The notes under the pieces: model-generated
What the model was told of the DNA's origin: nothing
The model's input: only the letters and a program-made list of their open reading frames with translations
Database searches by the model: none
Position numbers and translations under genes: made by a program
Shown here: positions 3,645-44,654 of the stretch, piece after piece
How the letters are laid out: every line of letters begins with the position of its first letter
How positions within the stretch are numbered: position 1 is the stretch's first letter
Source: an uncultured Gammaproteobacteria bacterium
GTDB lineage: Bacteria; Patescibacteriota; Patescibacteriia; SBBC01; CAIJZX01
DNA length: 64,000 nt
Direction: 5' to 3'
Assembly: GCA_964397195.1 (NCBI GenBank)
Contig: CAYNGY010000003.1
Span: forward strand, 69,836-133,835

Positions 3645-5024
3645 TTACCCCAACATCATATCTTCATCCATGTTGTCGGCGCGGTTATCGAAGGAGGCAC
3701 GCCGTTCAACGAAGGTCAGGCGGACGCGGCCGGTCGGACCATTTCGATGTTTGGCGATAATGATTTCGGCGAGGTTCTTTTTGGCGTCTTCAATATCGTG
3801 GTCGTAGACCGCCGGGCGATAGATGAAGAGCACGACGTCGGCGTCTTGTTCGATGGATCCGGATTCGCGGAGGTGGGCGAGCTTTGGGATCGGCGGTTTT
3901 TCCATTTCGACCGCGCGGGCCAGCTGCGACAGGGCGAGGACGGGGACGTTGAGCTCACGAGCAATCGATTTTAATCCACGCGTAATTTCCGAAACTTCCT
4001 GGGTCCGGTTTTCCGATGACCGACTTTCCATCAGCTGGAGGTAGTCGATAATGATCAGACCGAGGGCTTTGTGCTCGGACTGCAGACGTCGGGCTTTGGT
4101 CCGAATTTCCATGATATTAGCGGTGGCCGAGTCATCAATAAAAATCGGCGCTTCAGCGAGTAAGCCCATGGCATGGCCGATGCGTTGAAAATCTTCGTCA
4201 TCAGACAATCGTCCGGTCCGCATTTTCCAAAGGTCGACGTCGGCTTGCGAAACGAGCAAACGGTCAACGACCTGTTCCTTCGACATTTCTAAACTGAAGA
4301 TGCCGACCGGTTGCTTTGTTTTCAGGGCGACGTTGCGACCGATGTCGAGGGCGAGCGATGTTTTTCCGACGGATGGTCGGGCGGCGAGAATAACGAGGTC
4401 CGACTTTTGCAGGCCACCAAGGATATTATCGAGAGCCGTGAAGCCGGTTGGTACGCCGCGCAAGGCGCCGGTTTCATGATGGAGGGTGTCGATGCGATCA
4501 AAGGCCTCGTGGAGAATGTCGCGAATGTTAATGAAGTTCTGCTTGAGGTACTTTTGTGAAACGCTAAACAGCGACTGTTCTGCTTTGTCGAGTAGGGCGG
4601 AGACATCTTCGGTTTCACTCGTGCCCATTTCGACGATTGAGGTCGCGGCGTGCATCAGACGACGAAGGGTCGCTTTCTTCTGGACAATCCCGGCGTACTG
4701 CAAAACATTCGCGGCGGAGGGGACGGCATTGGACAGGGCGACGAGCGTACTGCGTCCACCGATAGCGTCGAGCTGATTGCGTTCGCCGAGCAGGTTGGCC
4801 ATCGAGACGATGTCGATCGGCTCGTGGAGCTGGAAGAGCGAGGCCATGGCGTCGTAGACCAGGCGGTGCTTATCGGCGTAAAAATCGTCGGCGGTAATCT
4901 TATCGGCGACCTTGATAAAGGCGTCTTGGTCGATTAGGACCGAGCCCAAAACCGCTTCTTCGGCTTCACGGGAGTTCGGGGGAATACGGGGGTTGTCGGC
5001 CATAGCGGGTGTAGTGTACGTCAC
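3645..5024 (-). CDS. dnaB: replicative DNA helicase DnaB
   Basis: 459 aa with DnaB N-terminal domain motifs, a Walker A (GARPSVGKTSLAL) and the DnaB C-terminal RecA-like domain. No intein is present. Confidence 0.92.
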   Translation of the reverse strand: MTYTTPAMADNPRIPPNSREAEEAVLGSVLIDQDAFIKVADKITADDFYADKHRLVYDAMASLFQLHEPIDIVSMANLLGERNQLDAIGGRSTLVALSNAVPSAANVLQYAGIVQKKATLRRLMHAATSIVEMGTSETEDVSALLDKAEQSLFSVSQKYLKQNFINIRDILHEAFDRIDTLHHETGALRGVPTGFTALDNILGGLQKSDLVILAARPSVGKTSLALDIGRNVALKTKQPVGIFSLEMSKEQVVDRLLVSQADVDLWKMRTGRLSDDEDFQRIGHAMGLLAEAPIFIDDSATANIMEIRTKARRLQSEHKALGLIIIDYLQLMESRSSENRTQEVSEITRGLKSIARELNVPVLALSQLARAVEMEKPPIPKLAHLRESGSIEQDADVVLFIYRPAVYDHDIEDAKKNLAEIIIAKHRNGPTGRVRLTFVERRASFDNRADNMDEDMMLG

Positions 5025-8530: not shown

Positions 8531-9118
8531 TCAGGTGACGACCGGGGTGGCGGGCTCGAGACTAGCGGCGTAGTCCAGCAGGCGCTCCATGAACCGCTGG
8601 AAGTGACGACTGTTGGCCGGGACGATCGCGTCGATGGCTTTGAACTGGGCGGCCGTCTGGGCGAGCTCGATGACGAGGGCGATGGCGTGTTGCCAGACCA
8701 TCCGATTGCCGTTGTTCTCGTAGCTGCTCAGTTCGGTGCAAACGGTCATCCAGCCGTCGAAATTCTTGTCGAGCACGAGGTTGGCTCGAGCCACTAGGAT
8801 CATGCTCGTCCGATTGTTCCAACCGGATGAACGCGAGAACGCTTCGATGACGTCGGTCGTAGAAGTCGGCGCCGCCGCGATCCGGACGTGGGCCAAACTG
8901 ATCACCTCGTTGATCCTCGTCAGATCGTACCGGCCATCGGGCGGGTGCTCTTCGAGACGAATGAGCCGACGCGTCGGATGGATGGCCTCGTTGAGGGTGT
9001 TGTGAACCCGGCACCAGGTTAGGATGGGAATATCCTGGGCTGACTTGATCTGTTCGACGAGGGACGGTCCGTTCGGGCCGTACAACTCTTTGGCGATCGT
9101 AGCCAGGTTGAGCTCCAT
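8531..9118 (-). CDS. hypothetical protein (195 aa)
   Basis: The ORF has an internal ATG at MELNLATIAKE. It is convergent with the hemolysin III gene and shares a hairpin at the stop. A YENNGNR segment faintly resembles a degenerate Fic/Doc core, which is not enough to call. Confidence 0.45.
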   Translation of the reverse strand: MELNLATIAKELYGPNGPSLVEQIKSAQDIPILTWCRVHNTLNEAIHPTRRLIRLEEHPPDGRYDLTRINEVISLAHVRIAAAPTSTTDVIEAFSRSSGWNNRTSMILVARANLVLDKNFDGWMTVCTELSSYENNGNRMVWQHAIALVIELAQTAAQFKAIDAIVPANSRHFQRFMERLLDYAASLEPATPVVT

Positions 9119-9337
9119 GACGATCCTCCGTGGGTGGTGCGACTCTGGGCAGAGTCCTATCATAGAAGTGGGACGTTGTCGAGAGTGACTTGACCATTTT
9201 ATATATCCGAGTAGAGTGGTTGGGCTGTACTTTTTTGTCGATGACGTGAACGCTGTGGCAGCAAGTTTTGTGGCCAAAGCGCTCACGTCATCGGGACGCG
9301 AGCACCTCTCGCCTTGGATGGCGAAAAGGAGTGTCGT

Positions 9338-9739
9338 ATGGGAGTGCGTTGGGACAAATCGGATCGTAACCTGGTGAACTTCTTCCACATCGACTGGGCC
9401 AGTATCCGCATCGAGGCCTTGATCCAGCGCCACGGTCGCCCGATCGAGTCCCCGTGGGAAATGCTGCAACGCGTCGGGGGCGTGCTCATCCTGCGCGATC
9501 ACCTGATGGCATCCGTCGAGGCCGGACAATTCGTCATCCGACCCGGCACGCCGATCGTCGTCGGAGATCGCTGGCAACCGAGGAAGGGCGGAATCCACCA
9601 CGGCTTCTTCACCAATCCGGTGGTCATGGCCGGTGGCCAGCGTCCGTCCATCTACGACGCCGCCAACTGGCTGTGGCGTGAGGAATCACGCGGCTTCGTT
9701 CGCCCGTGCTGGCGCTTCGCCGTCGGCACGCCGGTGTAG
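9338..9739 (+). CDS. hypothetical protein (133 aa)
   Basis: Divergent from the 8531-9118 gene across a 220-nt intergenic region. No motif was recognised. Confidence 0.4.
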   Translation: MGVRWDKSDRNLVNFFHIDWASIRIEALIQRHGRPIESPWEMLQRVGGVLILRDHLMASVEAGQFVIRPGTPIVVGDRWQPRKGGIHHGFFTNPVVMAGGQRPSIYDAANWLWREESRGFVRPCWRFAVGTPV

Positions 9740-9981
9740 ACGCGCATCATCGCTCCATCGCGGGCACCCCACCCGCGATTTTTGATATTGAAAAACACCT
9801 CCGAGGCCGTGTGGCGCCGGAGGCGGGGGAGCGAACTGTGCGGGGTGCAGCTAGGGACGACGGACGTGCGGGACACGTTTCGGTTCTTTCCGCGCGTTCT
9901 GGGCGATCCGGATCTCGGTGTAGGACTCGCTGGGAGTTGTCGGCTGACGTGGTGGTTGCACCGGGCGGGGTTGTTTGTTGT

Positions 9982-10143
9982 TCATCGACGCTCCTTGGTC
10001 ATCGGCCGGGTCGGCAGATCCTCGCCGGTGCCGTGGCCTTCGGGATGGTTGCTGCCACGAATGATGATTCTGATGAGCAGGACGATGATGACGACGAAGG
10101 CGATGCCGATGCCGATCAGGAGTCTTGTCATGGGAACCTCCAT
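9982..10143 (-). CDS. putative single-TM microprotein (about 50 aa)
   Basis: Found by manual translation as M(EVPM)TRLLIGIGIAFVVIIVLLIRIIIRGSNHPEG.., directly downstream of the zinc-ribbon gene in the same minus-strand operon. It is below the ORF-track size cutoff, and coordinates are within about 3 nt. Confidence 0.3.
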   Translation of the reverse strand: MEVPMTRLLIGIGIAFVVIIVLLIRIIIRGSNHPEGHGTGEDLPTRPMTKERR

Positions 10144-10165
10144 CGAACCGTGTCACGGCGGAGAA

Positions 10166-10450
10166 CTAGTCGGCCTGACCGTCTTCGCCGCCTCGAGTTG
10201 GGTCGAAGCGACGGCGCTCCGATGCGGACAGCATAGCCGGCGTGAGCGGGGCGGGGTGACAGTCCGGGCATTTCTTCTTGCCTTCGTGTTCCCGCAGATA
10301 CTCCAGCCAGGTGACCTGCTGACATCCAGCACAGCGTTCGCCGTGCCGCGAGAGTAGCAGGAAGCTCGAGTCGGTTCCGTCGCCGTCGCCACCCCAGCGA
10401 GACGCGGCTGAGTCGGCGGTTGGGGCAACGGTGTTCGGGTCGTGTTCCAC
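10166..10450 (-). CDS. zinc-ribbon protein (CxxC..CxxC), hypothetical
   Basis: A GTG start is preceded by GGAGGT. The 94 aa product has a C-terminal CAGC...CPDC pair. It lies 17 nt downstream of the 277-aa gene, which indicates an operon. Confidence 0.5.
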   Translation of the reverse strand: MEHDPNTVAPTADSAASRWGGDGDGTDSSFLLLSRHGERCAGCQQVTWLEYLREHEGKKKCPDCHPAPLTPAMLSASERRRFDPTRGGEDGQAD

Positions 10451-10466
10451 GTCGTACCTCCGTGGT

Positions 10467-11300
10467 TCAACGAATGGCGCTAGCGCGGACGGCCATATGG
10501 AGCGCCGACAGCCCAGCCAAGAAGACGAGGATCTCAATCGGCGAGGTGATCGCGCATCCGACGAGTAAACCGCCGGACTCAGCTCTGAACTGGGTGTGGG
10601 TTTCGAGCTGCACCTTCTCACACGGATAGCCGAGTGTGAGCATGTTGTCAGCGACGGTCACTGGGAACTGCTCGGCCGCTTCGTGCGGTCGAACACGGCC
10701 GTTCGTCATCCGATTGTAGGCGAGGCGCATGGCCTCGGAAACGCCGGGTAGGGGAGACGTGTTGCCCCAGCGATTGAGCCAGTCGGCAGTTGGGCCGCTG
10801 ACCCAGATGTGGAGTCCGCCCGACTGGGTGGAGCTCGGGGTTAAGCGGATGTCGCTGACGGCGAACGTCTGAGGACGATCCGTCCACGGTGACTCCGTCG
10901 ATGTGGACATGAGCGCCGACGTGACCACGGCGTACGAGGCGAGGAGCGCCTCGATCGGTGCGAGGTCGACTCCTTTCAACGGTTCACCGAGGTGACGCGG
11001 GTAGGGGAAGCGCAAAACGATCGTCTCGCCCGTCAGTTCGGCGTGGGCTTTCCGTCCGTAGCCCCACGAGCAAGCGACCTCGATCGGGGTGAACGGCGGA
11101 AGGACAGATTCGTCCATGACGGTCGTTGCGGGTGTGGCGCAGCGATTGGCGACGTCCATGAAGATGTTGAAGGGCATTCCGATGACGAGCCCATACTGTG
11201 TGGCCAGAAACTCATACCAAGCAGGGCAGGTGCCCTGCCGAATGGCGTACCCATGCCGCTCGAGCATGCCGGCCTCCTTGAGGGTGTAGGGTTCGGTCAC
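10467..11300 (-). CDS. hypothetical protein (277 aa)
   Basis: Long ORF with a coherent composition and no recognisable motif. It is the first gene of a minus-strand three-gene operon inside the high-GC island. Confidence 0.5.
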   Translation of the reverse strand: MTEPYTLKEAGMLERHGYAIRQGTCPAWYEFLATQYGLVIGMPFNIFMDVANRCATPATTVMDESVLPPFTPIEVACSWGYGRKAHAELTGETIVLRFPYPRHLGEPLKGVDLAPIEALLASYAVVTSALMSTSTESPWTDRPQTFAVSDIRLTPSSTQSGGLHIWVSGPTADWLNRWGNTSPLPGVSEAMRLAYNRMTNGRVRPHEAAEQFPVTVADNMLTLGYPCEKVQLETHTQFRAESGGLLVGCAITSPIEILVFLAGLSALHMAVRASAIR

Positions 11301-11369: not shown

Positions 11370-11984
11370 CTAACCCATGTCCTTGCGGAGTACCGACCGA
11401 ACGAGATGTCCGACAGAAAGCACCGATGCATGTCTCTGATCGAAATCTGGACGGTAGAAGGAGCAGTTGATGCGGGAAGTTGCGTCTCGGAAAACGTGGC
11501 GATACAGTGCTTGGTAGACGCGGCCCTGGAGGTAACTTCTCCAGCTCAGGCCACGTGGAAGCGGTGCGAGGAGAAAGCTCTGGTGATCAATCGTGACGAA
11601 GGGGATCCGCAGTCGACGCGCCACGTAGGCGGTATACGGTTCCACATCCGTGATGATCAGGGCCGGATCGAGACGGGTGATTAATGAGAGCACCTCTCGA
11701 TACGCTCGGCCCCGGCCCATGTCCAGCCGGATGACGGCGGGCCCGTAGTGGGTCAGCATTCGGGCGTTGTTCAGTCGAGTGCCCTCGTAGATGAAGGTCA
11801 CCGGGCCGATCGGATGGATACGCTTGTACCCACCTTGGTTGAAAAACGCGAGGGCATCACCGCTGGTGAGGATGTGGACCTCGTAGCCCCGGGCGGTGAG
11901 CTCGTCGATGACTACGGCACTGCGGGTCGCGTGACCTCGGCCTTCGCCCATCACGCCATAGACCACGGTCTGTTTCTTGGTCAT
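11370..11984 (-). CDS. GT-B glycosyltransferase N-terminal domain only (GT28/MGT-like), probably a truncated gene
   Basis: 204 aa. The N-terminus VYGVMGEGRGHATRSAVVIDEL..RGYEVHILT matches the MurG/MGT-type acceptor domain. No C-terminal nucleotide-sugar-binding half (HGGxGT..E) follows in any frame. Confidence 0.5.
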   Translation of the reverse strand: MTKKQTVVYGVMGEGRGHATRSAVVIDELTARGYEVHILTSGDALAFFNQGGYKRIHPIGPVTFIYEGTRLNNARMLTHYGPAVIRLDMGRGRAYREVLSLITRLDPALIITDVEPYTAYVARRLRIPFVTIDHQSFLLAPLPRGLSWRSYLQGRVYQALYRHVFRDATSRINCSFYRPDFDQRHASVLSVGHLVRSVLRKDMG

Positions 11985-12149
11985 GTTTGGCCTCGAGAGA
12001 GAAGGTGCGGTTCGGAGGTTCGATGGATCGAAGTTACGGCCTCATTCTACATGGGCCGGGCCCGCCGTCAATGCGCGAGGGTCACGGCCCGCTAAAGCCC
12101 ACAACTCCGACCATTGACCGGGCTGGGTTTTGCGCGTATACTCTGGCCC

Positions 12150-13127
12150 ATGTCTGAATCTGCTTCAACCGATCGCTTGGCTATCTCGGCCAAAGGAATC
12201 ACGAAATCATTCAAAGATACTGACGTCTTGAAGGGGATCAACCTGTCCGTACCTTCGGGCACCGTCTTTGCACTACTCGGTCCGAATGGAGCCGGGAAAA
12301 CAACGATGGTTCGGATCCTGGCGACCTTGTTGCGGATGGATAGCGGACAAGCGAGTGTGGGTGGGTTCGATGTCACGACGAACGCTGATGCAGTTCGCGG
12401 CGTCATTGGGTTAACCGGACAGTTCGCCGCGGTTGATGAAAAACTGACCGGTCGCGAAAATCTCGAGATTATTGGCCAGCTCTATCATATTCATGCCGCC
12501 GATGCGAAACGCCGGGCCCAGGAACTGCTGGAACGTTTTGAACTGCTGGATGCCGCCGGCCGGGCCGTCAAGAAATATTCCGGTGGGATGCGTCGTCGTT
12601 TAGACTTAGCGGCTAGCCTGATTGTCACGCCGCCAATTATTTTTCTGGATGAACCGACCACCGGTCTCGATCCACATAGTCGCAACACCATGTGGCGGAT
12701 TATTGAAGAGCTGGTGAAAGACGGGACGACGATTTTGTTAACGACCCAGTATCTTGAAGAGGCTGATCAGTTAGCTGACCGCATCGCCGTGATTGATAAA
12801 GGTGTCGTCATTGCCGAGGGCACGGCCGATGAATTGAAAGACAAGGTCGGGCGGGAACAACTCGAAGTGGTGATGGAATCGGATGCGGATTTCGTGTCGG
12901 CATTGAGCATCTTTGGCTCGCAGGCCAGCCACCAAAACGCCGCTACCCGGACGATGCAATTTGCGGTTGAGCATGGCGTCCATCAACTTCGCTCGATCCT
13001 CGACCAATTTGATGAAGCGCATATTAATGTTAAAAGTATCGCGACGCACCGGCCAACGCTCGACGACGTATTTCTGAAACTAACCGGTCATGAAGCGGAA
13101 ATGAAAACCGAGGAGGCAAAATCATGA
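12150..13127 (+). CDS. ABC transporter ATP-binding protein
   Basis: Walker A GPNGAGKTT, the signature SGGMRRR, Walker B ILFLDEPT and a C-terminal extension. A TATACT -10 box sits about 6 nt upstream, giving a near-leaderless transcript. Confidence 0.88.
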   Translation: MSESASTDRLAISAKGITKSFKDTDVLKGINLSVPSGTVFALLGPNGAGKTTMVRILATLLRMDSGQASVGGFDVTTNADAVRGVIGLTGQFAAVDEKLTGRENLEIIGQLYHIHAADAKRRAQELLERFELLDAAGRAVKKYSGGMRRRLDLAASLIVTPPIIFLDEPTTGLDPHSRNTMWRIIEELVKDGTTILLTTQYLEEADQLADRIAVIDKGVVIAEGTADELKDKVGREQLEVVMESDADFVSALSIFGSQASHQNAATRTMQFAVEHGVHQLRSILDQFDEAHINVKSIATHRPTLDDVFLKLTGHEAEMKTEEAKS

Positions 13128-13933
13128 GCACGTCCATCGCCAATACCATCCCGCAGGTGAAACACTCGAAAGCGGTGTGGATGTGTATCGATAGCTGGGT
13201 GATGGTCAAGCGCAGTTTGCTCCAAATCCGTCAGGATCCGGAACAGCTGATTGGCATTACGGTTCAACCGATCATGTTCGTGGTGCTGTTTCGGTTCGTC
13301 TTCGGCGGCGCGATCGACACCGGCGGGGTTAGCTACGTCAATTTCCTGATGGCCGGGATTTTTGTCCAGACCGCCGCCTTCGGTTCAACCATGTCGGCCT
13401 ACAGCGTCGCCATTGATCTCGAAAAGGGGATTATGGATCGTTTCCGGTCCTTGCCGATGATGAAGAGCGCGGTCTTGGTCGGACACGTCGTGGCCGATAT
13501 GATTCGTAACCTGCTCGCGACGGCGGTGATGGTCGGCGCCGGATTAGCCGTCGGGTTTCGTCCGGAAGCGAATTTTGCCGAATGGGCGCTGGCGATTGGG
13601 TTGTTACTCTTCTTCTCCTTCGCGTTGTCGTGGTTATTCGTCCTGATTGCCCTGATCGGAAAAACGATTCAGTTCGTTCAACAGTTTAGTTTCATCCTCA
13701 TCTTTCCGCTGACCTTCGTCAGTAGTGCTTTCGTGCCGGTCGAGACCATGCCGAATTGGCTCCAGGTCTTTGCAAAACATCAACCGCTGACCCACCTGAT
13801 CGAGGCGATTCGGGCGCTCCTCGTCGGGATGCCGGTCGGGAATCACGCCTGGATGACGCTTTGGTGGAGCCTCGGGATTCTGGCCGTCGGGTTCACCTCG
13901 ACAACAGCGCTCTTCCGCCGACAGGCGAAGTAG
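13124..13933 (+). CDS. ABC-2 family transporter permease
   Basis: Six TM helices, with an ATGA start-stop overlap with the upstream ATPase gene. Confidence 0.85.
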   Translation: MSTSIANTIPQVKHSKAVWMCIDSWVMVKRSLLQIRQDPEQLIGITVQPIMFVVLFRFVFGGAIDTGGVSYVNFLMAGIFVQTAAFGSTMSAYSVAIDLEKGIMDRFRSLPMMKSAVLVGHVVADMIRNLLATAVMVGAGLAVGFRPEANFAEWALAIGLLLFFSFALSWLFVLIALIGKTIQFVQQFSFILIFPLTFVSSAFVPVETMPNWLQVFAKHQPLTHLIEAIRALLVGMPVGNHAWMTLWWSLGILAVGFTSTTALFRRQAK

Positions 13934-13985
13934 ATAACCCAAACAACCCATATTTCTTTATAGGCGGCTTGGCGTTGACTAGTTT

Positions 13986-14060
13986 TGGTGGGTCCCCTGG
14001 GACTCGAACCCAGAACCCACGGCTTAAAAGGCCGTTGCTCTACCATTGAGCTAGGAACCC
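13986..14060 (-). tRNA. tRNA-Lys (anticodon UUU), CCA encoded
   Basis: The reverse complement folds as a cloverleaf: acceptor GGGTTCC/GGGACCC, anticodon stem ACGGC/GCCGT, loop CUUUUAA, T-arm CTGGG-TTCGAGT-CCCAG, and a 3' ACCA. Confidence 0.85.
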
Positions 14061-14250
14061 AAGAGAAGCCAACGTGCGAAGGGTAGCGAAAAATGGCGAA
14101 TTGGTCAACGGTTTGACGATATGGACGGGTTTGCGTGGCGGGTGTAGATTGTGGGTGTTGGGCTAATGGAACGAGTTCGAGTTCCGGGTGGCCCACCAAC
14201 GACGCGACAACAGTGTCGCATTAATACGAGCACACATATCTTAGGTAGGC

Positions 14251-15141
14251 ATGGAACGAGATTGGGAATCACTATTTACTAACTGGGCAAAACCGCCTAG
14301 CGTTTCGGAACGTGAGCGCATGGAGAATGCTGAACGCGCTGTTCGTGATGCCATCGGGGCAAGTAGTGCACTCAGTGACCACAATATCCGAGTATTCCCG
14401 CAGGGATCGTACCGCAATCGAACAAATGTACGACAAGATAGCGATGTAGATATCTGCGTACTTTGTACTGATACGTACTATTTTCAGTTGCCTGAAGGGA
14501 AGACGAGAGATCAGTTTGGGCTCAATACGCCCGCGACCTACCCGGATGCAACATTTCGATCGGACGTAGAAAATTCCCTGATTGATCACTTTGGCGCGTC
14601 CTCTGTGCATGCTGGTAAAAAAGCCTTTGATGTTCATGCCAACTCTTATCGAGTTGATGCTGACGTGACCGCGTGTTTCGAATATCGGTTTTTCTACGAG
14701 GATGGTACTTATAGAACAGGCACGGCTCTTCTACCTAAAGAGGGCATGTATATTCCTAACTATCCTGATCAGCACTACAAGAATGGGTACGCAAAGCATG
14801 AGTCCACTAGCCAACAATACCGTAAGATAGTACGTGCTCTCAAAAACCTAGCTGGGAATATGGCAGCATCAGGTATTAGTATCGCTAATTCGGCACCATC
14901 GTTTTTGCTTGAGTCAATGACCTGGAATGTCCCAGACAGCATGTTTGTTGGAGATTCGTATAAGTCTGATATGCGAAGAATTCTGGCACACACTTTTAAC
15001 GCCACTCTTAATGATGAAGACTGCTCTGACTGGTATGAGGTAAATGGCCACAAGTACCTATTTCGCACTACACAGCCATGGAGCCGGGAACAGGCACATA
15101 ACTTTCTAAGTTCCGCGTGGAATTATGTTGGATACGAATAG
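14251..15141 (+). CDS. SMODS / cGAS-DncV-like nucleotidyltransferase (CD-NTase) of a CBASS-type system
   Basis: 296 aa with the pol-beta NTase signature FPQGSYRNRTNVRQDSDVDICVL (GS...DxD) and a downstream acidic residue (VDADV). It sits in a low-GC segment beside tRNA-Lys. Confidence 0.7.
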   Translation: MERDWESLFTNWAKPPSVSERERMENAERAVRDAIGASSALSDHNIRVFPQGSYRNRTNVRQDSDVDICVLCTDTYYFQLPEGKTRDQFGLNTPATYPDATFRSDVENSLIDHFGASSVHAGKKAFDVHANSYRVDADVTACFEYRFFYEDGTYRTGTALLPKEGMYIPNYPDQHYKNGYAKHESTSQQYRKIVRALKNLAGNMAASGISIANSAPSFLLESMTWNVPDSMFVGDSYKSDMRRILAHTFNATLNDEDCSDWYEVNGHKYLFRTTQPWSREQAHNFLSSAWNYVGYE

Positions 15142-15144
15142 CCT

Positions 15145-15768
15145 ATGCCTTCAAAAAACCAGTTAACTGTCCTAATATTTTTTGCTGTGCTGACTTGGGC
15201 AATTTTGCTATGGTGGCAAGGGGTGTCGCCCTCGGCTGATTGGCTCAAACCCTTCTCGTCGGTTGTTGGCGTTCTAATGCTTCTTCTCGCAGGGTTTAAC
15301 CTCTGGTTTTGGAGGTGGCCAGTTTTCCGTGGGTGGCTGGTAAAGAGGCCAGTTGTTGGAGGAACGTGGAAAGTAACACTACAAACACGCTGGAAGGATC
15401 CAGAGACCGGTCTTGTGCCAGGACCAATCCTCGGTTTCATGGCTATTCGTCAACATTACGATAGCTTGTCAATGCGACTGATGACAAAAGAATCTGTCTC
15501 TGTACTATTGGGCGCTGAAATTCTTACTGATCCCGATGGGTCTCGAAGTATTGTGGGTGTATATCGGAATGAACCGAAAATTGCAGTAATGGATCGAAGC
15601 AGGATACATCATGGAGCATTATTGCTTAGTGTGCATGGGCAGCCTCCAGCCCGACTAACGGGGAAATACTGGACGGATAGAGAAACCGCTGGGGATATTG
15701 AGCTGTTTGATCACAAACCAGTGAGTTATGACGATTTCAAAACAGCAACAAAAGCCTGGGAAGTTTGA
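15145..15768 (+). CDS. 2-TM effector (Cap15/SLATT-like) coupled to the CD-NTase
   Basis: 207 aa. Two N-terminal TM helices (LTVLIFFAVLTWAILLWW and VVGVLMLLLAGFNLWFW) are followed by a roughly 150-aa beta-rich C-terminal domain. Its start is 4 nt after the CD-NTase stop, indicating translational coupling. Confidence 0.6.
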   Translation: MPSKNQLTVLIFFAVLTWAILLWWQGVSPSADWLKPFSSVVGVLMLLLAGFNLWFWRWPVFRGWLVKRPVVGGTWKVTLQTRWKDPETGLVPGPILGFMAIRQHYDSLSMRLMTKESVSVLLGAEILTDPDGSRSIVGVYRNEPKIAVMDRSRIHHGALLLSVHGQPPARLTGKYWTDRETAGDIELFDHKPVSYDDFKTATKAWEV

Positions 15769-16333: not shown

Positions 16334-16487
16334 GGCCACTCGAATAAGCCGTCTCTCCGAACTGGATCCATTTCCAAAGTTCAGACCGGGTGACCCCCAC
16401 CTAGAAAATAATTTAGCCACGACCTGTCCACAACCATCGGCCGAGTAATATCGGTTGGTAAAGCCGAGGCCGTGTTATCATACCCGC

Positions 16488-16802
16488 ATGTCTAAAATCA
16501 CAGTTTCAAAAGGGACTGTCCACGCTGTCCCGCCCGATGTTCGGCGGGCGTTGATGTCCGATCGTGAGGCGCGGGCGCTTTGGGAGGACTTGACGCCGCT
16601 GGCGCGCAACGAGTGGATTTGTTGGGTGACCTTCGTCAAGAAAGCGGAGACGCGACAGGATCATGTTCGCCGGGTGGTGAGTGAGCTCAAGGACGGGATG
16701 CGCCGGCCGTGTTGCTGGCTCGGCTGTCCGCATCGAAAAGACAAAGCGGTCAGTCCGTCGGTGCAAGGAATACTGGCGCGACGATCGAGAACGAAATCAT
16801 AA
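16488..16802 (+). CDS. YdeI/OmpD-associated family protein
   Basis: Carries the conserved LARNEWICWV..K..TRQ.R core. Confidence 0.55.
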   Translation: MSKITVSKGTVHAVPPDVRRALMSDREARALWEDLTPLARNEWICWVTFVKKAETRQDHVRRVVSELKDGMRRPCCWLGCPHRKDKAVSPSVQGILARRSRTKS

Positions 16803-16820
16803 TCAACTCACGATCAGGCT

Positions 16821-17198
16821 ATGAAAAAAGGTACGTACGTAGAAGGCTTCGTCATTTCCATCCCAAAAAAGAACACGGCCAAGTACATCAAGATGGCCCG
16901 TGAAGGAAAGCAGGCCTGGATGAAGTTCGGAGCGCTTGATTATAAGGAATGCATGATCGACGGCGCCTCGCCGAAACACATTACCTTTACCTTCCCGAAG
17001 ATGGCAAAAACGAAGCCGAGTGAAGTGACCTGGTTTTCCTTCATTACCTACAAATCGAAGGCGCATCGCCAAGCCGTCAACAAGAAGGTCATGGCGTATT
17101 TATCCAAGAAGTATGGGAGTGAGCCGGGACCAGTGGGTATGCCGTTCGACATGAAGCGCATGAGTCACGCGACGTTTAAAGTGGTCGTTGGCGCATAA
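16821..17198 (+). CDS. DUF1428-family protein
   Basis: 125 aa with the MKKGTYV.GFV..IPK pattern. Confidence 0.55.
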   Translation: MKKGTYVEGFVISIPKKNTAKYIKMAREGKQAWMKFGALDYKECMIDGASPKHITFTFPKMAKTKPSEVTWFSFITYKSKAHRQAVNKKVMAYLSKKYGSEPGPVGMPFDMKRMSHATFKVVVGA

Positions 17199-17243
17199 GG
17201 TAGCAATAACAAGAGTCTTGCTTACTAATTACCCACGCGTCCC

Positions 17244-17726
17244 ATGGCCCAGCTCATTAAACCAATCACGCCGCACCTCTGGTTCGATACGCCGGAAAAG
17301 GTGAAGGAAGCGGTTGAGTATTATGTTTCGGTTTTTCCAAACTCAAAAGTGCTGAGCTCCTACGTCCTGCATAATACCCCGACGCCCGGCGGGGATACGT
17401 TTGTGTACGAATTCGAATTGAATGGCCAGCGGTTTATGGCTATTAATGGCGGCGACATCTTCAAGTTCAACGAAGCGGTGTCGTTCATTATTACTTGCGA
17501 GACGCAGGAAGAGCTGGACATGTATTGGTCAAAACTCTCGGCCGTGCCGGCCTCGGAACAGTGCGGCTGGTGCAAAGATAAATTCGGGCTGGTCTGGCAA
17601 ATTACGCCGCTCTATCTCGAGACGGTCATGTCGAGCAGGGATCAGGCGAAGATAGATCGGGTGACGCAGGCTTTCCTGACGATGAAAAAGATCGTGATTG
17701 CAGAATTAGAAAATGCGGCGGCGTAA
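17244..17726 (+). CDS. VOC/glyoxalase-like (PhnB / 3-demethylubiquinone methyltransferase-like) protein
   Basis: Carries I.P.LWF....EA..FY.SVF and GWCKDKFG.VWQI. Confidence 0.6.
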   Translation: MAQLIKPITPHLWFDTPEKVKEAVEYYVSVFPNSKVLSSYVLHNTPTPGGDTFVYEFELNGQRFMAINGGDIFKFNEAVSFIITCETQEELDMYWSKLSAVPASEQCGWCKDKFGLVWQITPLYLETVMSSRDQAKIDRVTQAFLTMKKIVIAELENAAA

Positions 17727-17730
17727 ATAT

Positions 17731-18189
17731 ATGGCTGAACTCAAAACCAAGAAAACTACCGCTAGCGTCGCAAAGTTCGTCGACGCCATTAAAGATGAAC
17801 AGCAACGCAAAGACGCGAAGGCGCTGGTGAAACTGTTTGCTGACATCACCGGCGAGCGGCCAGTCATGTGGGGTTCCGCCATTATCGGCTACGGGGATTT
17901 CCACTTCAAATACGCGAGCGGTCGGGAAGGTGATTGGATGCTGACCGGGTTTTCTCCCCGCAAGGGCAACCTATCACTCTATATCCATCCCCGGAATGTG
18001 GCGCCAAAACTGTTACAACAACTCGGGCCGCATAAGGCCAGCATGGGTTGTCTGTATCTCAATCGATTATCGGATGTCGATCAACAGGTGTTGCGAAAGG
18101 TAATCGTCGAAGGGATAAAGGAGCTGAAGAAGATGCTCTATCGTAAAGAGCGCCGGGGGCCGGTTCAGGGGAAAGCGGCGAGAAAATAG
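17731..18189 (+). CDS. DUF1801 (YdhG-like) protein, paralog 1
   Basis: Carries KTKKTTASV..F...DEQ.R.D...L..LF...TGE...MWG..I.GYG..HYKY. It is highly similar to the 19855-20280 gene. Confidence 0.6.
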   Translation: MAELKTKKTTASVAKFVDAIKDEQQRKDAKALVKLFADITGERPVMWGSAIIGYGDFHFKYASGREGDWMLTGFSPRKGNLSLYIHPRNVAPKLLQQLGPHKASMGCLYLNRLSDVDQQVLRKVIVEGIKELKKMLYRKERRGPVQGKAARK

Positions 18190-18324
18190 GCAATGGATTT
18201 GGTTCTGTTGCAAGGGCGGCCGCAATAGCCGTGGACAACCGGGGAGTTGACAACCGCGGCCAGTCGGTGGCAGAGTAGCGGCGCTGTTGTCGTCACTGTT
18301 TGGCGCCTCATGAAAGGATTCGCC

Positions 18325-18765
18325 ATGAAGATCTTCAGCCCGCTCGTTCTGTTTCTGCTTCTCTCTACTACGTCGGTCGCGTCGGCCGAAGAAGTCTTGA
18401 CCGGCATGCCCGTCGTGGCCGACCCGGCTGTCCCGATGCGCGACACGCTCGCCACGACGTACATCGACACGACCCGCGATCCCGCTCGCGACACGCTCTT
18501 CATCGCCGTGCGTGGGGTGATCATCAAGCAGGTCGCCGTCAACGCGTACGTCCAGGTGGTCAAGGCCGTGGCCTTCCCGATGAAGCCGGTCTACCACGTC
18601 GGGTCGTGGTCTGAGCTGGTCACGTTCGGAAAGCGCGCCGCGCCCGATCTCGTCCCAGCCGGGGTTTGGCGGGGTATCGTGACTGTGCCGCGAAAGCCCG
18701 GAACGACGTTCACCGTCGTCATGCGCGATGGGAACCGTCGCGATCTCCAGCCGGTCGATCCGTGA
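18325..18765 (+). CDS. secreted hypothetical protein
   Basis: Signal peptide MKIFSPLVLFLLLSTTSVASA is followed by a high-GC body. An alternative start lies at 18310. Confidence 0.5.
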   Translation: MKIFSPLVLFLLLSTTSVASAEEVLTGMPVVADPAVPMRDTLATTYIDTTRDPARDTLFIAVRGVIIKQVAVNAYVQVVKAVAFPMKPVYHVGSWSELVTFGKRAAPDLVPAGVWRGIVTVPRKPGTTFTVVMRDGNRRDLQPVDP

Positions 18766-18926
18766 ACGACACGCCTACTGTACATCCACCCGCACCGACG
18801 CTTGGTGCGGGTGGCCTCTCATACAAAAGTTCGAACGCCGCAAAATTTCGTATATCCACATCTTCCACCCGACATACGGTCAAGGAGAATGGTATACTAG
18901 TTTTTCGATATATTGTTACCAACGCT

Positions 18927-19361
18927 ATGCCTACCGCAAAAAAGAAAGTATTTACCGGATTCTCAGCTGCCGAGCGCGCGGCGATGCAAGCACGGGCGCT
19001 TGAACTCAAAGCCGAAGCGGAGAGCGCGAATGGTGAGAAGCAGGTCCTCGCCGCGATCGCTAAACTCCCTGAACCCGATCGGTCGCTGGCAAAACGGGTC
19101 CACGCAATCGTTCGACGTGCGGCGCCAAAACTTGTGCCGAAAACCTGGTATGGATTCCCGGCCTACGCGAACAAGGACGGAAAGATTGTTTGTTTCTTTC
19201 AGTACGCGAGTAAATTCAAGTATCGCTATTCAACCCTTGGGTTTCAGGATGCGGCATCGATTGATGATGGCGAAATGTGGCCGGTGGCGTATGCCCTGAA
19301 GAAATTGACCCCGGCTGATGAAAAGAAGATTGCCGCCCTCGTAAAAAAAGCGGTCAGGTAG
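18927..19361 (+). CDS. DUF1801 (YdhG-like) protein, paralog 2
   Basis: Carries WYGFPAYANKDGKIVCFFQYASKFKYRYSTLGF. Confidence 0.5.
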   Translation: MPTAKKKVFTGFSAAERAAMQARALELKAEAESANGEKQVLAAIAKLPEPDRSLAKRVHAIVRRAAPKLVPKTWYGFPAYANKDGKIVCFFQYASKFKYRYSTLGFQDAASIDDGEMWPVAYALKKLTPADEKKIAALVKKAVR

Positions 19362-42767: not shown

Positions 42768-44654
42768 ATGTCAAAGATCCTCGGAATCGACCTCGGAACC
42801 ACCAACTCGTGTATGGCCGTCATCGAAGGCGGCGAACCGAAAGTATTGGAAAACGCGGAAGGCGCCCGAACCACGCCGTCCGTCATCGCCATCACCAAGA
42901 CGGGTGAGCGTCTGGCGGGACAGGTCGCGAAACGTCAATCGGTCGTCAACCCACAAAACACGCTCTACTCGGTTAAGCGCCTGATCGGGCGACGCTGGGA
43001 CGACGAAGAAGTGCAGCGTGACCTGAAAGTCCTACCGTTCACGATTAAACATGCCGGTGAAGGGGTGAAGATCGACATGGGCGGGAAGGAATTCACACCG
43101 CAGGAAATTTCGGCCATGGTTTTGCAGAAACTGAAAGCGGACGCCGAAGCGAAACTCGGGACAACTATAACCGAAGCGGTGATTACGGTCCCGGCCTACT
43201 TTGATGATGCCCAGCGTCAAGCGACCAAAGATGCCGGGCGGATTGCGGGCTTCGACGTCAAACGGATTATTAACGAGCCGACCGCGGCCGCGCTGGCTTA
43301 CGGCTTCAACAAGAAGAAGGACGAAAAGATTGCCGTCTACGACCTTGGTGGTGGGACGTTTGATATCTCCATTCTGGAAGTGTCATCCGACACGGTGGAA
43401 GTGAAATCGACTAATGGTGACACCCATCTTGGCGGTGATGACTTTGACCAGAAGATTATCCACTGGATGATTGATGAGTTTAAGAAGTCGGAAGGTGTTG
43501 ATCTCGGGAAGGATCAGATGGCTCTCCAGCGTCTGAAAGAAGCGGCCGAGAAAGCGAAGCATGAGCTGTCGACATCGATGGAAACGGAGATTAACCTGCC
43601 GTTTATTACCCAAGGTCAGGCCGGGCCGCTCCACATGGTTATGAAATTCACGCGGGCCCAACTCGAACAGCTCGTTGGTGACTTAGTTGAGGCGACCCTC
43701 GAGCCGACGAAAAAGGCCTTAGCTGACGCGAATATGGCGGCTAAGGATATTAACGAAGTGATCTTGGTTGGTGGGATGACGCGTATGCCGCTCGTCCAAC
43801 AGGCGGTCGAAAAGTTCTTCGGCAAAAAACCGAATGTCTCGGTCAATCCGGATGAAGTCGTGGCGATTGGGGCCGCTGTTCAAGCCGGTGTTCTCCAAGG
43901 TGAAGTGAAAGATGTGCTTTTGCTCGACGTGACGCCGCTGACACTTGGGTTAGAAACGATGGGCGCCGTGGCGACACCGTTGATTGATCGCAATACGACC
44001 ATTCCGACCTCGAAATCACAGGTGTTCTCAACTGCCAGTGATAATCAGCCGAGTGTTGAGATTCACGTCCTGCAAGGGGAGCGACCAATGGCCCATGATA
44101 ACAAATCACTCGGGCGGTTCATCCTCGACGGAATCCCACCGGCACCGCGTGGCACGCCGCAGGTTGAAGTCACGTTCGATATTGATGCCAACGGTATTCT
44201 GAAGGTCAGCGCGAAGGACAAGGGGACGAATAAGGAGCAAACCATTACCATTCAAGGTTCGACCGGCCTAAATAAAGAAGAGGTCGAGAAGCTCCGCAAG
44301 GAAGCCGAATTGCACGCCGATGAGGACAAGAAGAAGAAAGAAGTGATTGAAGCACGGAACTTAGCGGAAGCGATGGTCTATCAGGCCGAGAAAGCGGTCC
44401 GCGAGGGCGGCGATAAAGTTCCGGCCGATGTGAAGAAAGACGTTGAAGAGAAGATTAAAGCCGTGAAGGATGTCCAAGGCAAGGACGACAAAGCGGCGAT
44501 CGAAGCGGCCTCGCGCGAACTTTCAACGGCCATGCAGAAGATTGGCGCGGCGATGTATAAGGATGCTAAACCGGAAGGCAAAGCTGGGGAGGCCGGCGCC
44601 ACCCCGAATGACAAAGGCCCTGTTGAGGGGGAAGTCGTCGACGATAAGAAATAA
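42768..44654 (+). CDS. dnaK: molecular chaperone DnaK (Hsp70)
   Basis: [18 protein letters not shown] and the substrate-binding domain are present, with a C-terminal GEVVDDKK. Confidence 0.95.

What the first reader, a model, noticed from the sequence alone, without database searches (positions are those of the whole stretch)
14251..15768. Two-gene CBASS-like module (SMODS/CD-NTase plus 2-TM effector) next to tRNA-Lys
The 296-aa protein carries the GS-x(12)-DxD polymerase-beta/cGAS-DncV nucleotidyltransferase signature (GSYRNRTNVRQDSDVDICV) plus a later acidic residue (VDADV). Four nucleotides downstream is a 207-aa protein with two N-terminal TM helices and a beta-rich C-terminal domain, the architecture of Cap15/SLATT-type CBASS effectors that kill by membrane disruption on cyclic-oligonucleotide binding. 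The pair is markedly lower in GC than its neighbours and abuts tRNA-Lys, consistent with horizontal acquisition. No Cap2/Cap3 or HORMA/TRIP13 genes are present, which fits a minimal type I system. In a small streamlined genome this would be an unusual anti-phage investment.
Basis: partly seen in the sequence, partly recalled or inferred. Interest (0 to 1): 0.8.

Follow-up and report, generated by a model that had tools for sequence, protein, structure and literature searches.

The report
Two-gene CBASS in a CPR bacterium
This is an intact, horizontally acquired two-gene anti-phage suicide system of a well-known type (a clade-E cyclic-dinucleotide synthase plus a Cap15 membrane-disrupting receptor); the only unusual thing about it is that it sits in the chromosome of a small-genome Patescibacteria (CPR) bacterium.

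Summary
ORF 14251-15141 (296 aa) is a clade-E CD-NTase (CdnE). It matches a PADLOC cyclase model at 4.5e-118 over its full length, is 43-44% identical to crystallised LpCdnE, and its model superposes on LpCdnE, ClCdnE and EfCdnE at TM 0.91-0.95. All catalytic residues are present (G52-S53, D65, D67, D138). So are the residues shown experimentally to impose pyrimidine selectivity (lid-1 N170, lid-3 Q275-x-W277), so the predicted signal is a cyclic di-pyrimidine (c-di-UMP or cUMP-CMP).

ORF 15145-15768 (207 aa) is a Cap15 (S-2TM-beta) effector, not a SLATT protein. It has two TM helices and an 8-stranded barrel, passes the Pfam Cap15_CD_rec threshold, and matches the YaCap15 structure at TM 0.84.

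No Cap2/3, HORMA/TRIP13 or other defence genes flank it, which makes it a type I CBASS. The pair is the lowest-GC stretch of the whole window and is absent from the same locus in two close relatives. It recurs as a tight cassette in defence islands and on conjugative Vibrio plasmids. DnaK places the host in the Patescibacteria, near Kerfeldbacteria. At least one other CPR genome has the same system type.

Verdict: a new member of a known kind, of modest interest.

The parts
14251..15141 (+). cdnE: clade-E cGAS/DncV-like nucleotidyltransferase (CD-NTase), 296 aa, predicted cyclic di-pyrimidine synthase
   Evidence: PADLOC PDLC00801 4.5e-118, residues 1-296 on profile 1-295/295. PDB 7x4f LpCdnE 1.2e-75, plus ClCdnE, EfCdnE, EmCdnE and RmCdnE. 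AF2 pLDDT 93.6; Foldseek TM 0.91-0.95 to Lp/Cl/EfCdnE. 1,599 homologues at E<=1e-20.
14404..14451 (+). Catalytic core G52-S53 ... D65-x-D67 (Mg2+-binding DxD), with N59
   Evidence: Residue-for-residue alignment to LpCdnE Ser53, Asn59, Asp65, Asp67. Conserved in 119-120 of 120 homologues. Roles taken from PMC10442399.
14662..14664 (+). Third catalytic aspartate, D138 (in VDADV)
   Evidence: Aligns with LpCdnE Asp139, a ligand of Mg-A. 120/120 conserved.
14758..14775 (+). Active-site lid: lid-1 N170 (uracil/cytosine recognition in the acceptor pocket) and lid-2 H175
   Evidence: N170 aligns with LpCdnE Asn173 / ClCdnE Asn169. H175 matches the His of ClCdnE and EfCdnE. N170 is 120/120; lid-2 is N 71 / H 41 / S 8.
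15073..15081 (+). Lid-3 (R/Q)xW motif, Q275-P-W277, which narrows the donor pocket to pyrimidines
   Evidence: Aligns with LpCdnE Q274-x-W276. Mutating either residue in EfCdnE switches the product to cUA/cUG (PMC10442399). Q is 119/120 and W is 120/120.
15145..15768 (+). cap15: S-2TM-beta (Cap15-family) effector, 207 aa
   Evidence: PADLOC 2TM effector PDLC00694 3e-71, residues 1-204 on profile 1-204/208. Pfam Cap15_CD_rec 1.6e-13, above the gathering score. AF2 pLDDT 91.5. Top PDB folds are YaCap15 7n34/7n35.
15154..15303 (+). Two N-terminal transmembrane helices (residues 4-24 and 31-53)
   Evidence: Kyte-Doolittle 19-residue windows above 1.6 at residues 4-28 and 33-56. Modelled as helices H4-24 and H31-53.
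15343..15717 (+). C-terminal eight-stranded beta-barrel, the predicted cyclic-dinucleotide receptor domain (residues ~67-191)
   Evidence: Pfam PF18153 covers residues 67-187. Strands span 73-191. Foldseek to YaCap15: TM (target) 0.84, rmsd 2.5 A, 23% identity; the next hits are generic barrels at rmsd >10 A. The invariant YWTDR motif (Y175-R179) and H155/G157 are conserved across 35 homologues.
14243..14249 (+). Shine-Dalgarno-like AGGTAGG, 1 nt before the cyclase ATG
   Evidence: Read directly from the sequence. No sigma-70-like promoter was found upstream on the + strand.
14160..14198 (+). Orphan tRNA 3'-end-like element (T-loop, acceptor and CCA) 52 nt upstream of the cyclase. Possibly an att-site relic; whether it belongs to the cassette is uncertain.
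   Evidence: 25-nt inverted repeat, 84% complementary to the 3' end of tRNA-Lys. Unique in the window, 0/100 shuffles. Not a complete tRNA. Absent from viral contigs and from the other loci.
13986..14060 (-). tRNA-Lys(UUU), a divergently oriented neighbour (context only, not part of the system)
   Evidence: ARAGORN. Rfam RF00005 72.9 bits.

Best explanation
The locus is an intact type I CBASS operon, a cyclic-oligonucleotide-based anti-phage signalling system, made of two co-oriented and almost abutting genes.

The first gene encodes a clade-E CD-NTase (CdnE). On phage infection it condenses two nucleoside triphosphates into a cyclic dinucleotide. Its acceptor pocket carries the uracil/cytosine-reading Asn (N170) and its donor pocket carries the Q-x-W 'gauge' (Q275, W277), so the product is most likely a 3'3' cyclic di-pyrimidine: c-di-UMP, perhaps with cUMP-CMP.

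The second gene encodes a Cap15-family effector. Two N-terminal helices anchor it in the cytoplasmic membrane. Its C-terminal eight-stranded beta-barrel binds the cyclic dinucleotide, the protein oligomerises and the membrane is disrupted. This kills the infected cell before phage progeny are released (abortive infection).

What is shown here: family membership, fold, the complete set of catalytic and specificity residues, the operon architecture, the lack of accessory genes, foreign composition, and chromosomal residence in a Patescibacteria (CPR) genome.

What is inferred from characterised homologues: the identity of the nucleotide (confidence about 0.65), ligand-induced oligomerisation and membrane disruption (about 0.8), and anti-phage function in this host (about 0.7).

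The infection trigger is unknown. By analogy with the staphylococcal CdnE-Cap15 systems it may be a structured phage RNA, but that was not tested.

The cassette was most likely acquired horizontally as a two-gene unit from a non-CPR donor or a mobile element.
For: Cyclase:
- PADLOC 4.5e-118 over the full length.
- Sequence matches to five CdnE crystal structures, the best being 7x4f 'cyclic dipyrimidine nucleotide synthase' at 1.2e-75.
- AF2 pLDDT 93.6, with TM 0.91-0.95 and rmsd 1.8-2.0 A to LpCdnE, ClCdnE and EfCdnE. All 50 top PDB hits are CD-NTases.
- Q51, S53, N59, D65, D67, K124, D138, N170, K198, S217, Q275 and W277 are all identical to the LpCdnE ligand-contacting residues.
- These residues are conserved in 104-120 of the 120 nearest homologues: at least 117 for all of them except N59 (109) and S217 (104).

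Effector:
- PADLOC 2TM 3e-71 and Pfam Cap15_CD_rec above threshold.
- Two TM helices plus an 8-strand barrel at pLDDT 91.5.
- The top three folds are YaCap15.

Pairing:
- The same cyclase-effector adjacency (gap of -25 to +6 nt) occurs in L003/L004, L005/L006, L002, and the Vibrio plasmids L029/L030. The effector is 45-74% identical in all of these except L002, which was matched by profile only.

Type I:
- No Cap2/3, HORMA/TRIP13 or other PADLOC hits in the neighbours.
- No second CD-NTase in the window.

Horizontal transfer:
- The pair is the GC minimum of the window and has deviant GC3.
- The cassette is lower in GC than its flanks in every locus, and nucleotide similarity to L003 is confined to 14260-15710.
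- It is absent from close relatives L007 and L008, whose permease is 82-83% identical.

Mechanism of the family:
- PMC10442399 (CdnE-Cap15 operons and the c-di-UMP pathway).
- PMC12657218 and PMC10686824 (Cap15 is activated by its ligand and disrupts the membrane).
Against: - No experiment exists for this protein pair, and none for any CPR CBASS that I could find.
- No sigma-70-like promoter was detected upstream, and codon composition is far from the host's. Expression in this host is therefore unproven.
- The effector is only 23% identical to the one solved Cap15 (sequence-only E=0.92), so its ligand preference cannot be read off.
- Lid-2 is His rather than the Asn of LpCdnE, and lid-2's role in specificity is unsettled (PMC10442399).
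- CdnE enzymes carrying the same lid-1 Asn can make mixed cUMP-AMP (RmCdnE). The pyrimidine-only prediction therefore rests mainly on the QxW motif.
Confidence: 0.9

Rival explanations
1. Inverted ('Panoptes-like') logic. The cyclase makes the cyclic dinucleotide constitutively, and the ligand holds the S-2TM-beta effector inactive. Phage sponge proteins such as Acb2 deplete the ligand and release the effector.
For: The S-2TM-beta family contains both polarities: OptE is restrained by its ligand and Cap15 is activated by it (PMC12657218). The crystallised CdnEs are active in vitro without an added activator (PMC10442399). Nothing in the sequence tells the polarity of this effector.
Against: Panoptes is defined by an mCpol (Cas10-palm) synthase. 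Here the synthase is an unambiguous CD-NTase, and no mCpol-like gene lies nearby. All characterised CdnE-Cap15 pairs are ligand-activated. The effector matches Pfam Cap15_CD_rec and the YaCap15 structure.
Confidence: 0.04
2. A recently transferred passenger cassette that is silent or decaying in this host: intact in sequence, but not expressed or not functional in a CPR cell.
For: GC3 is 0.41-0.43 against a host range of 0.53-0.75. No recognisable promoter was found. The cassette is absent from close relatives. The exact proteins are singletons in a database of 15 billion proteins.
Against: Both ORFs are full length against their HMMs (1-296/295 and 1-204/208). There are no frameshifts or stops. 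Every catalytic, specificity and family-invariant residue is retained. An SD-like AGGTAGG precedes the ATG. CPR promoters are not covered by the sigma-70 scan.
Confidence: 0.05
3. A non-CBASS Pol-beta nucleotidyltransferase (for example an MNT/KNTase-type antitoxin or a CCA-adding-like enzyme) next to an unrelated small membrane protein.
For: Generic Pfam NTP_transf_2, Polbeta and SMODS models give only sub-threshold hits (E 0.011-0.18). NCBIfam gives no hit above its cut-offs.
Against: Clade-specific models and crystal structures match end to end at E 1e-118 and 1e-75. The C-terminal CD-NTase helical domain is present (PF26305; model). The partner is a Cap15 receptor by profile and by fold. 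The gene pair is conserved across phyla.
Confidence: 0.01

Closest known systems
Legionella pneumophila LpCdnE (Lp-CdnE02)-Cap15 type I CBASS, together with the ClCdnE and EfCdnE operons (PDB 7x4f, 7x4a, 7x4c; PMC10442399)
   Same: The operon is the same two genes, CdnE followed by Cap15. The cyclase is 43-44% identical over its full length, with TM 0.91-0.95. The catalytic triad, lid-1 Asn and lid-3 QxW are identical. Lid-2 is His, as in ClCdnE and EfCdnE.
   Different: The host is a Patescibacteria (CPR) bacterium rather than a proteobacterium, Bacteroidota or Firmicute. The sequence has diverged (about 56% non-identical). The product has not been measured. F218 replaces Tyr221, and L160 replaces Ile163/Phe159.
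Yersinia aleksiciae Cap15 (PDB 7n34/7n35; Duncan-Lowey et al. 2021, Mol Cell 81:5039; cited via PMC10442399 and PMC12657218, not read directly)
   Same: Both have two N-terminal TM helices and a compact eight-stranded beta-barrel cyclic-dinucleotide receptor. Target-normalised TM is 0.84 and rmsd is 2.5 A.
   Different: Identity is only 23%, and sequence-only comparison is insignificant (E 0.92). The window protein has an extra C-terminal helix (198-206). Its ligand-contact residues could not be compared, because the primary paper is not in the library.
Staphylococcus schleiferi Ssc-CdnE03-Cap15 type I CBASS (PMC10686824)
   Same: It is also a type I CdnE + Cap15 pair, and offers a plausible model for how infection is sensed: a structured phage RNA binds a basic surface of the cyclase.
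   Different: Ssc-CdnE03 makes cGAMP, whereas the window enzyme has the pyrimidine-selective QxW motif. The RNA-binding Lys9/Lys13 surface could not be aligned or tested here.
Panoptes OptS-OptE (PMC12657218)
   Same: It is a two-gene operon whose effector belongs to the same S-2TM-beta family.
   Different: Its synthase is an mCpol (Cas10 palm), not a CD-NTase. Its signalling polarity is inverted.
Cyclase + 2TM effector pair in the Ca. Paceibacterota MAG JAGOSI010000027.1 (L002)
   Same: This is another CPR genome with a clade-E-like cyclase (PADLOC 2.8e-95) immediately followed by a 2TM effector (1.6e-49). It also has lower GC than its flanks.
   Different: The cyclase is only 35% identical, and its best PADLOC models differ (PDLC00788 and PDLC00705). 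It sits next to a type II methyltransferase.

Membership tests
CD-NTase (cGAS/DncV-like nucleotidyltransferase), clade E | Pol-beta-type NTase core with a GS motif and three catalytic acidic residues ([DE]x[DE] ... [DE]) | tested here: met
   G52-S53, D65-V-D67 and D138 align with LpCdnE Ser53, Asp65, Asp67 and Asp139. Conserved in 119-120 of 120 homologues.
CD-NTase (cGAS/DncV-like nucleotidyltransferase), clade E | Full-length similarity, in sequence and fold, to experimentally characterised CdnE enzymes, including the C-terminal helical domain | tested here: met
   phmmer against LpCdnE, ClCdnE, EfCdnE, EmCdnE and RmCdnE gives 1.2e-75 to 9.5e-35. Foldseek gives TM 0.80-0.95 to the same five, while clades B, C, D and G and DncV reach only 0.48-0.72. 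PF26305 CD_NTase_C is the precomputed hit.
CD-NTase (cGAS/DncV-like nucleotidyltransferase), clade E | Match to Pfam SMODS (PF18144) above the gathering score | tested here: not met
   14.2 bits against a threshold of 26.5, N-terminal 55 residues only. Many close homologues do carry PF18144 in the precomputed annotation. This is a sensitivity limit of that model, not evidence against membership.
Cyclic di-pyrimidine-synthesising CdnE subgroup (PMC10442399) | Lid-1 Asn in the acceptor pocket plus the lid-3 (R/Q)xW motif in the C-terminal loop | tested here: met
   N170 and Q275-P-W277. Conserved 120/120, 119/120 and 120/120 in homologues.
Cyclic di-pyrimidine-synthesising CdnE subgroup (PMC10442399) | Enzymatic product is c-di-UMP / cUMP-CMP | not testable with these tools
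   Requires purified enzyme and LC-MS.
Cap15 / S-2TM-beta effector family | Two N-terminal transmembrane helices | tested here: met
   Hydropathy windows at residues 4-28 and 33-56. Modelled helices 4-24 and 31-53.
Cap15 / S-2TM-beta effector family | C-terminal eight-stranded beta-barrel cyclic-dinucleotide receptor domain | tested here: met
   Pfam PF18153 at 51.5 bits, above the 31.2 threshold. Eight strands in the model. YaCap15 gives the three best PDB matches, at TM 0.83-0.85.
Cap15 / S-2TM-beta effector family | Ligand-induced oligomerisation and inner-membrane disruption | not testable with these tools
   Known for YaCap15 and related proteins from the literature. Needs binding and permeabilisation assays.
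   No SLATT family appears at E<=1 in Pfam. The soluble domain is an all-beta barrel.
Type I CBASS | CD-NTase and effector adjacent on the same strand, with no Cap2/Cap3 (type II), HORMA/TRIP13 (type III) or Cap9-Cap12 (type IV) genes | tested here: met
   3-nt intergenic spacer. Neighbours are an ABC transporter, tRNA-Lys, tRNA_bind, OmdA, DUF1428 and DUF1801 genes. No PADLOC hits in ten flanking ORFs.
Type I CBASS | Confers phage resistance by abortive infection | not testable with these tools
   Requires expression and a phage challenge.
Panoptes (OptSE) | [quoted passage not shown] | tested here: not met
   The synthase is a CD-NTase by profile, sequence and fold.
tRNA-targeted integrative genomic island | Integrase gene, insertion at the 3' end of a tRNA gene, and flanking direct repeats of the tRNA 3' end | tested here: not met
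   There is no integrase in the flanks. CBASS lies on the 5' side of the minus-strand tRNA-Lys. The only tRNA-end-like repeat is a single inverted copy at 14175-14198, with no second copy in 64 kb.

The most novel reading that the evidence does not exclude
The orphan tRNA 3'-end-like element (14160-14198, an acceptor/T-arm-like minihelix ending in CCA), together with the hairpin directly upstream of the cyclase, is a functional part of the cassette. It could be the attachment site of a minimal, integrase-less CBASS module that hops between CPR and non-CPR genomes at tRNA ends, or a cis-regulatory tRNA mimic. A second unexcluded reading is that the system works with ligand-restrained (Panoptes-like) polarity in an obligate episymbiont. 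Neither reading is excluded by my data, and neither is supported beyond position and orientation.
Probability: 0.06. Interest if true: 0.5.

Novelty: new member of a known kind. Interest (0 to 1): 0.27.

Why it matters
The system type (type I CBASS, CdnE + Cap15, cyclic di-pyrimidine signalling) is already characterised structurally and genetically, so the locus adds no new mechanism.

Its modest value is contextual. It is a clean, complete example of an abortive-infection system that was recently acquired by an ultra-small Patescibacteria genome. These organisms carry few defence systems per genome but many per megabase, and their phages are almost unknown. A sequence-intact CdnE-Cap15 pair from a CPR bacterium could be expressed in a surrogate host. 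That would test whether CPR CBASS enzymes make cyclic di-pyrimidines and what activates them.

It also gives a practical warning for automated screens: the Pfam SMODS model misses this genuine CD-NTase, while clade-level profiles (PADLOC) and PF26305 detect it.

Tried and rejected
(1) Empty-site test. I scanned metagenome contigs with the adjacent ABC-2 permease. Two close relatives (L007 and L008, 82-83% identity) have 10 kb of downstream sequence. However, synteny ends right after the permease: they carry tRNA-His(+) and different genes there. So there is no clean 'empty site'. The only conclusion is that the CBASS pair is absent from those loci.

(2) Classical tRNA-island model. Rejected for three reasons: the pair is on the wrong side and strand relative to tRNA-Lys, there is no integrase, and there are no direct repeats.

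(3) Origin of the orphan tRNA 3' fragment.
- It is not the relatives' tRNA-His, because the acceptor sequences differ.
- It is not detected as a tRNA or as any Rfam family.
- There is no exact copy in IMG/VR or in the 30 fetched loci.
- The fold z-score of the leader is only -1.77.
- It is left unexplained.

(4) Phage vector. There are no close relatives in IMG/VR or INPHARED. Only distant PHROG families of unknown function match.

(5) Organism identification.
- The genome-contig scan returned only one distant hit, L002.
- Exact look-ups gave no NCBI accession or name.
- The lineage was therefore inferred from DnaK homologue names.

(6) NCBIfam 'DS2_2_antiphage' sub-threshold hit. I could not find what DS2 refers to.

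(7) The primary Cap15 paper (PMID 34784509) is not held. Cap15 ligand-contact residues could therefore not be compared.

(8) SLATT, MNT-antitoxin, CCA-adding enzyme and Panoptes readings were considered and rejected.
Full report
**1. What is in the sequence**

- The cyclase stop codon TAG (15139-15141) is followed by three bases (CCT) and then the effector ATG.
- An SD-like AGGTAGG lies at 14243-14249.
- tRNA-Lys(UUU) is at 13986-14060, but on the minus strand. Its 5' end faces the cyclase, 190 nt away.
The real spacing is G52-S53-x(11)-D65-x-D67, and the 'later acidic residue' is D138.

**2. The 296-aa protein is a clade-E CD-NTase**

Generic Pfam models are weak. SMODS PF18144 scores 14.2 bits against a gathering score of 26.5, and NTP_transf_2 has E = 0.011. 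Clade-level models and structures are decisive:
- PADLOC 'Cyclase' PDLC00801 matches at 4.5e-118, residues 1-296 on profile 1-295/295.
- phmmer against the PDB finds LpCdnE (7x4f, 'cyclic dipyrimidine nucleotide synthase') at 1.2e-75, ClCdnE at 3.3e-66, EfCdnE at 1.6e-50, EmCdnE at 1.8e-42 and RmCdnE at 9.5e-35. The first four are end to end, and the RmCdnE match covers residues 46-287.
- An AlphaFold model built on 54 homologues (pLDDT 93.6, pTM 0.89) superposes on LpCdnE (TM 0.91/0.93, rmsd 1.9 A), ClCdnE (0.95/0.94, 1.8 A) and EfCdnE (0.92/0.89, 2.0 A). Other CD-NTase clades and DncV follow at lower scores, and all 50 best hits are CD-NTases.

**3. Predicted product**

Ko et al. (PMC10442399) defined the relevant residues from substrate complexes and mutants.
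- The ligands are Gln51, Ser53, Asn59, Asp65, Asp67, Lys125, Asp139, Lys201 and Ser220 (LpCdnE numbering).
- Lid-1 is Asn173 and reads the acceptor uracil or cytosine.
- Lid-2 is Asn178 in LpCdnE, and His in ClCdnE and EfCdnE.
- Lid-3 is an (R/Q)xW motif whose Trp packs on the donor pyrimidine. Changing either residue in EfCdnE switches the product to cUA/cUG.

Mapping through the HMMER alignment gives Q51, S53, N59, D65, D67, K124, D138, K198 and S217, plus lid-1 N170, lid-2 H175 and lid-3 Q275-P-W277.

In the 120 nearest homologues, N170 and W277 are invariant, Q275 is 119/120, and the catalytic Asp residues are 119-120/120.

The enzyme therefore belongs to the cyclic di-pyrimidine-synthesising CdnE subgroup by every sequence criterion in that paper. 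The product itself is inferred, not measured.

**4. The 207-aa protein is a Cap15 (S-2TM-beta) effector**

- Pfam Cap15_CD_rec matches at 1.6e-13, 51.5 bits against a threshold of 31.2, over residues 67-187.
- PADLOC '2TM effector' PDLC00694 matches at 3e-71, residues 1-204 on profile 1-204/208.
- Hydropathy gives two TM segments, residues 4-28 and 33-56.
- The AlphaFold model on 35 homologues (pLDDT 91.5, pTM 0.81) shows helices 4-24 and 31-53, eight strands between residues 73 and 191, and a short C-terminal helix.
- Foldseek against the PDB returns Yersinia aleksiciae Cap15 as the three best hits (7n34/7n35: target TM 0.83-0.85, rmsd 2.5-2.8 A, 21-23% identity). The next hits are generic lipocalin-like barrels at rmsd above 10 A.
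- By sequence alone the YaCap15 match is insignificant (E 0.92), so the fold test was necessary.
- Residues invariant across homologues include H155, G157 and the Y175-W-T-D-R179 motif. Their role was not tested.

**5. System type and alternatives**

Neighbours are an ABC-2 exporter (ATPase 12114-13127, permease 13124-13933), tRNA-Lys, a tRNA_bind protein, OmdA, DUF1428, 3-dmu-9_3-mt and DUF1801 genes.
- None is a Cap2/Cap3, HORMA/TRIP13 or other defence gene, and ten flanking ORFs have no PADLOC hit.
- There is no second cyclase or effector in the window.

This is a minimal type I CBASS.

The Panoptes system uses a homologous S-2TM-beta effector with inverted logic, but it is defined by an mCpol synthase (PMC12657218). 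That is excluded here. I cannot exclude inverted polarity as such, but all characterised CdnE-Cap15 pairs are ligand-activated.

The trigger is unknown. In Staphylococcus, CdnE03-Cap15 and CdnE01 systems are switched on by a structured phage RNA that binds a basic surface of the cyclase (PMC10686824). This is a lead only.

**6. The pair is a mobile two-gene cassette**

The cyclase has 1,599 homologues at E<=1e-20, the nearest at 63% identity. The effector's nearest homologue is 74% identical and lies on the same contig. The adjacency is conserved in unrelated contexts:
- L003/L004 sit among HTH, ThiF and ParA-like genes.
- L005/L006 lie in a defence island with AAA_15, KAP NTPase, HEPN and a serine recombinase.
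- Conjugative Vibrio plasmids carry it next to IS66 or SLATT + reverse transcriptase genes. The cyclase there is 46-48% identical and the effector 45% identical.
- L002 is a Ca. Paceibacterota MAG in which the pair sits next to a methyltransferase.

Nucleotide similarity to the closest relative stops at the coding boundaries (14260-15710), and in every locus the cassette has lower GC than its flanks.

No close relatives are found in phage collections. Only distant PHROGs of unknown function match.

**7. Acquisition in this genome**

- The pair has GC 0.467, the minimum of all 1,518-nt windows in the 64 kb (mean 0.552, sd 0.03), and that minimum falls at exactly 14251.
- GC3 is 0.41-0.43, against 0.53-0.75 for 18 other genes.
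- The ABC operon is shared with two close relatives (L007 and L008, permease 82-83% identical). Those carry tRNA-His(+) and other genes downstream, and they have no CBASS.
- Because synteny breaks at that point, there is no simple empty site.
- The tRNA-Lys adjacency does not support integrase-mediated insertion. The tRNA is on the wrong strand and the pair is on its wrong side, there is no integrase, and there are no direct repeats.
- An orphan tRNA-3'-end-like sequence on the + strand (14160-14198, ending in CCA) lies 52 nt upstream of the cyclase. It is oriented as an att remnant would be, but I found no second copy and no match elsewhere. It remains unexplained.

**8. Host**

The window is chromosomal, since it carries DnaB (3645-5024) and DnaK (42768-44654).
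- DnaK is 92% identical to two unnamed metagenomic proteins.
- It is 82-84% identical to proteins named Ca. Kerfeldbacteria or Patescibacteria group, a lineage within the Parcubacteria/Patescibacteria group.
- The exact cassette is on an NCBI contig of 179,452 bp and on a Logan contig from SRR12487045 that starts inside the tRNA-Lys gene.

CPR defensomes have been surveyed. They show fewer systems per genome but higher density per Mb than other phyla (PMC12259885). At least one other CPR MAG carries the same architecture. A CBASS in a CPR genome is worth noting, but it is not a surprise.

**9. Verdict**

The locus is a new member (43-44% and 23% identical to the solved CdnE and Cap15 prototypes) of a known, structurally and genetically characterised kind of system.

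Shown here:
- family membership
- fold
- catalytic and specificity residues
- operon architecture
- type I status
- foreign composition
- the CPR host

Inferred:
- a cyclic di-pyrimidine product
- ligand-triggered membrane disruption
- anti-phage function in this host

Interest is low to moderate.

Noticed in passing
window 14160-14220 (+): An orphan tRNA 3'-end-like sequence (GGGCTAAT-GGAAC-GAGTTCGA-GTTCC-GGGT-GGCCC-A-CCA) can fold as an acceptor/T-arm minihelix. It is followed by a perfect 6-bp hairpin GCGACA-acag-TGTCGC (14205-14220), just upstream of the cyclase. It is 84% complementary to the 3' end of the neighbouring tRNA-Lys and is unique in the window. It is not a complete tRNA and has no match elsewhere. 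It could be an att relic, a decayed tRNA, or chance.
   Followed up: partly
L007 4903-4977 and L008 2298-2373, compared with window 13934-14200: Close relatives (ABC-2 permease 82-83% identical) have a tRNA-His(+) directly downstream of the permease, where the window has tRNA-Lys(-). Synteny ends at the permease stop, so this junction is a rearrangement or insertion hotspot in the lineage.
   Followed up: partly
window 9400-11200 and 18200-18800: Two high-GC patches (0.63-0.665, against a window mean of 0.552). Their long ORFs (8531-9601 -, 9782-10357 +, 10467-11300 -, 18247-18765 +) have no Pfam or PADLOC hits. They may be further foreign DNA, or high-GC non-coding DNA producing spurious ORFs.
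   Followed up: no
window 11370-11984 (-): A 204-aa glycosyltransferase ORF matches only positions 3-128 of the 322-position Glyco_trans_1_3 profile. It may be a truncated or frameshifted gene.
   Followed up: no
window 16455-19361 (+), also L001 2457-6249: A run of small genes of the OmdA/YdeI, DUF1428, 3-dmu-9_3-mt (glyoxalase-like) and DUF1801 families, with several DUF1801 paralogues, lies immediately downstream of the CBASS pair and the tRNA_bind gene. A 60%-identical homologue of 18921-19358 lies upstream of the ABC operon in L007.
   Followed up: no
window 14251-15141 (method note): Pfam SMODS (PF18144) scores only 14.2 bits, below the gathering score of 26.5, on this genuine CdnE. NCBIfam CBASS_cyclase_a/b also fall far below their cut-offs. 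The best NCBIfam hit is NF053871 'DS2_2_antiphage' at 181 bits (cut-off 350), and I could not trace its source system. Screens that rely on these models would miss the locus.
   Followed up: partly
L005 1-6829 and 11700-13307; L030 6169-8070: Relatives of the cassette sit in defence islands. In L005 it is next to AAA_15, KAP NTPase, a TPR-HEPN_LA2681 protein and a serine recombinase. On a conjugative Vibrio nigripulchritudo plasmid it is followed by SLATT-domain and reverse-transcriptase genes.
   Followed up: no
L001 (Logan SRR12487045_16939) position 1 = window 14032: The independent Logan assembly of the same sequence (0 mismatches over 11,110 nt) breaks inside the tRNA-Lys gene. This is consistent with strain-level variation or a repeat at this junction in the source community.
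   Followed up: no
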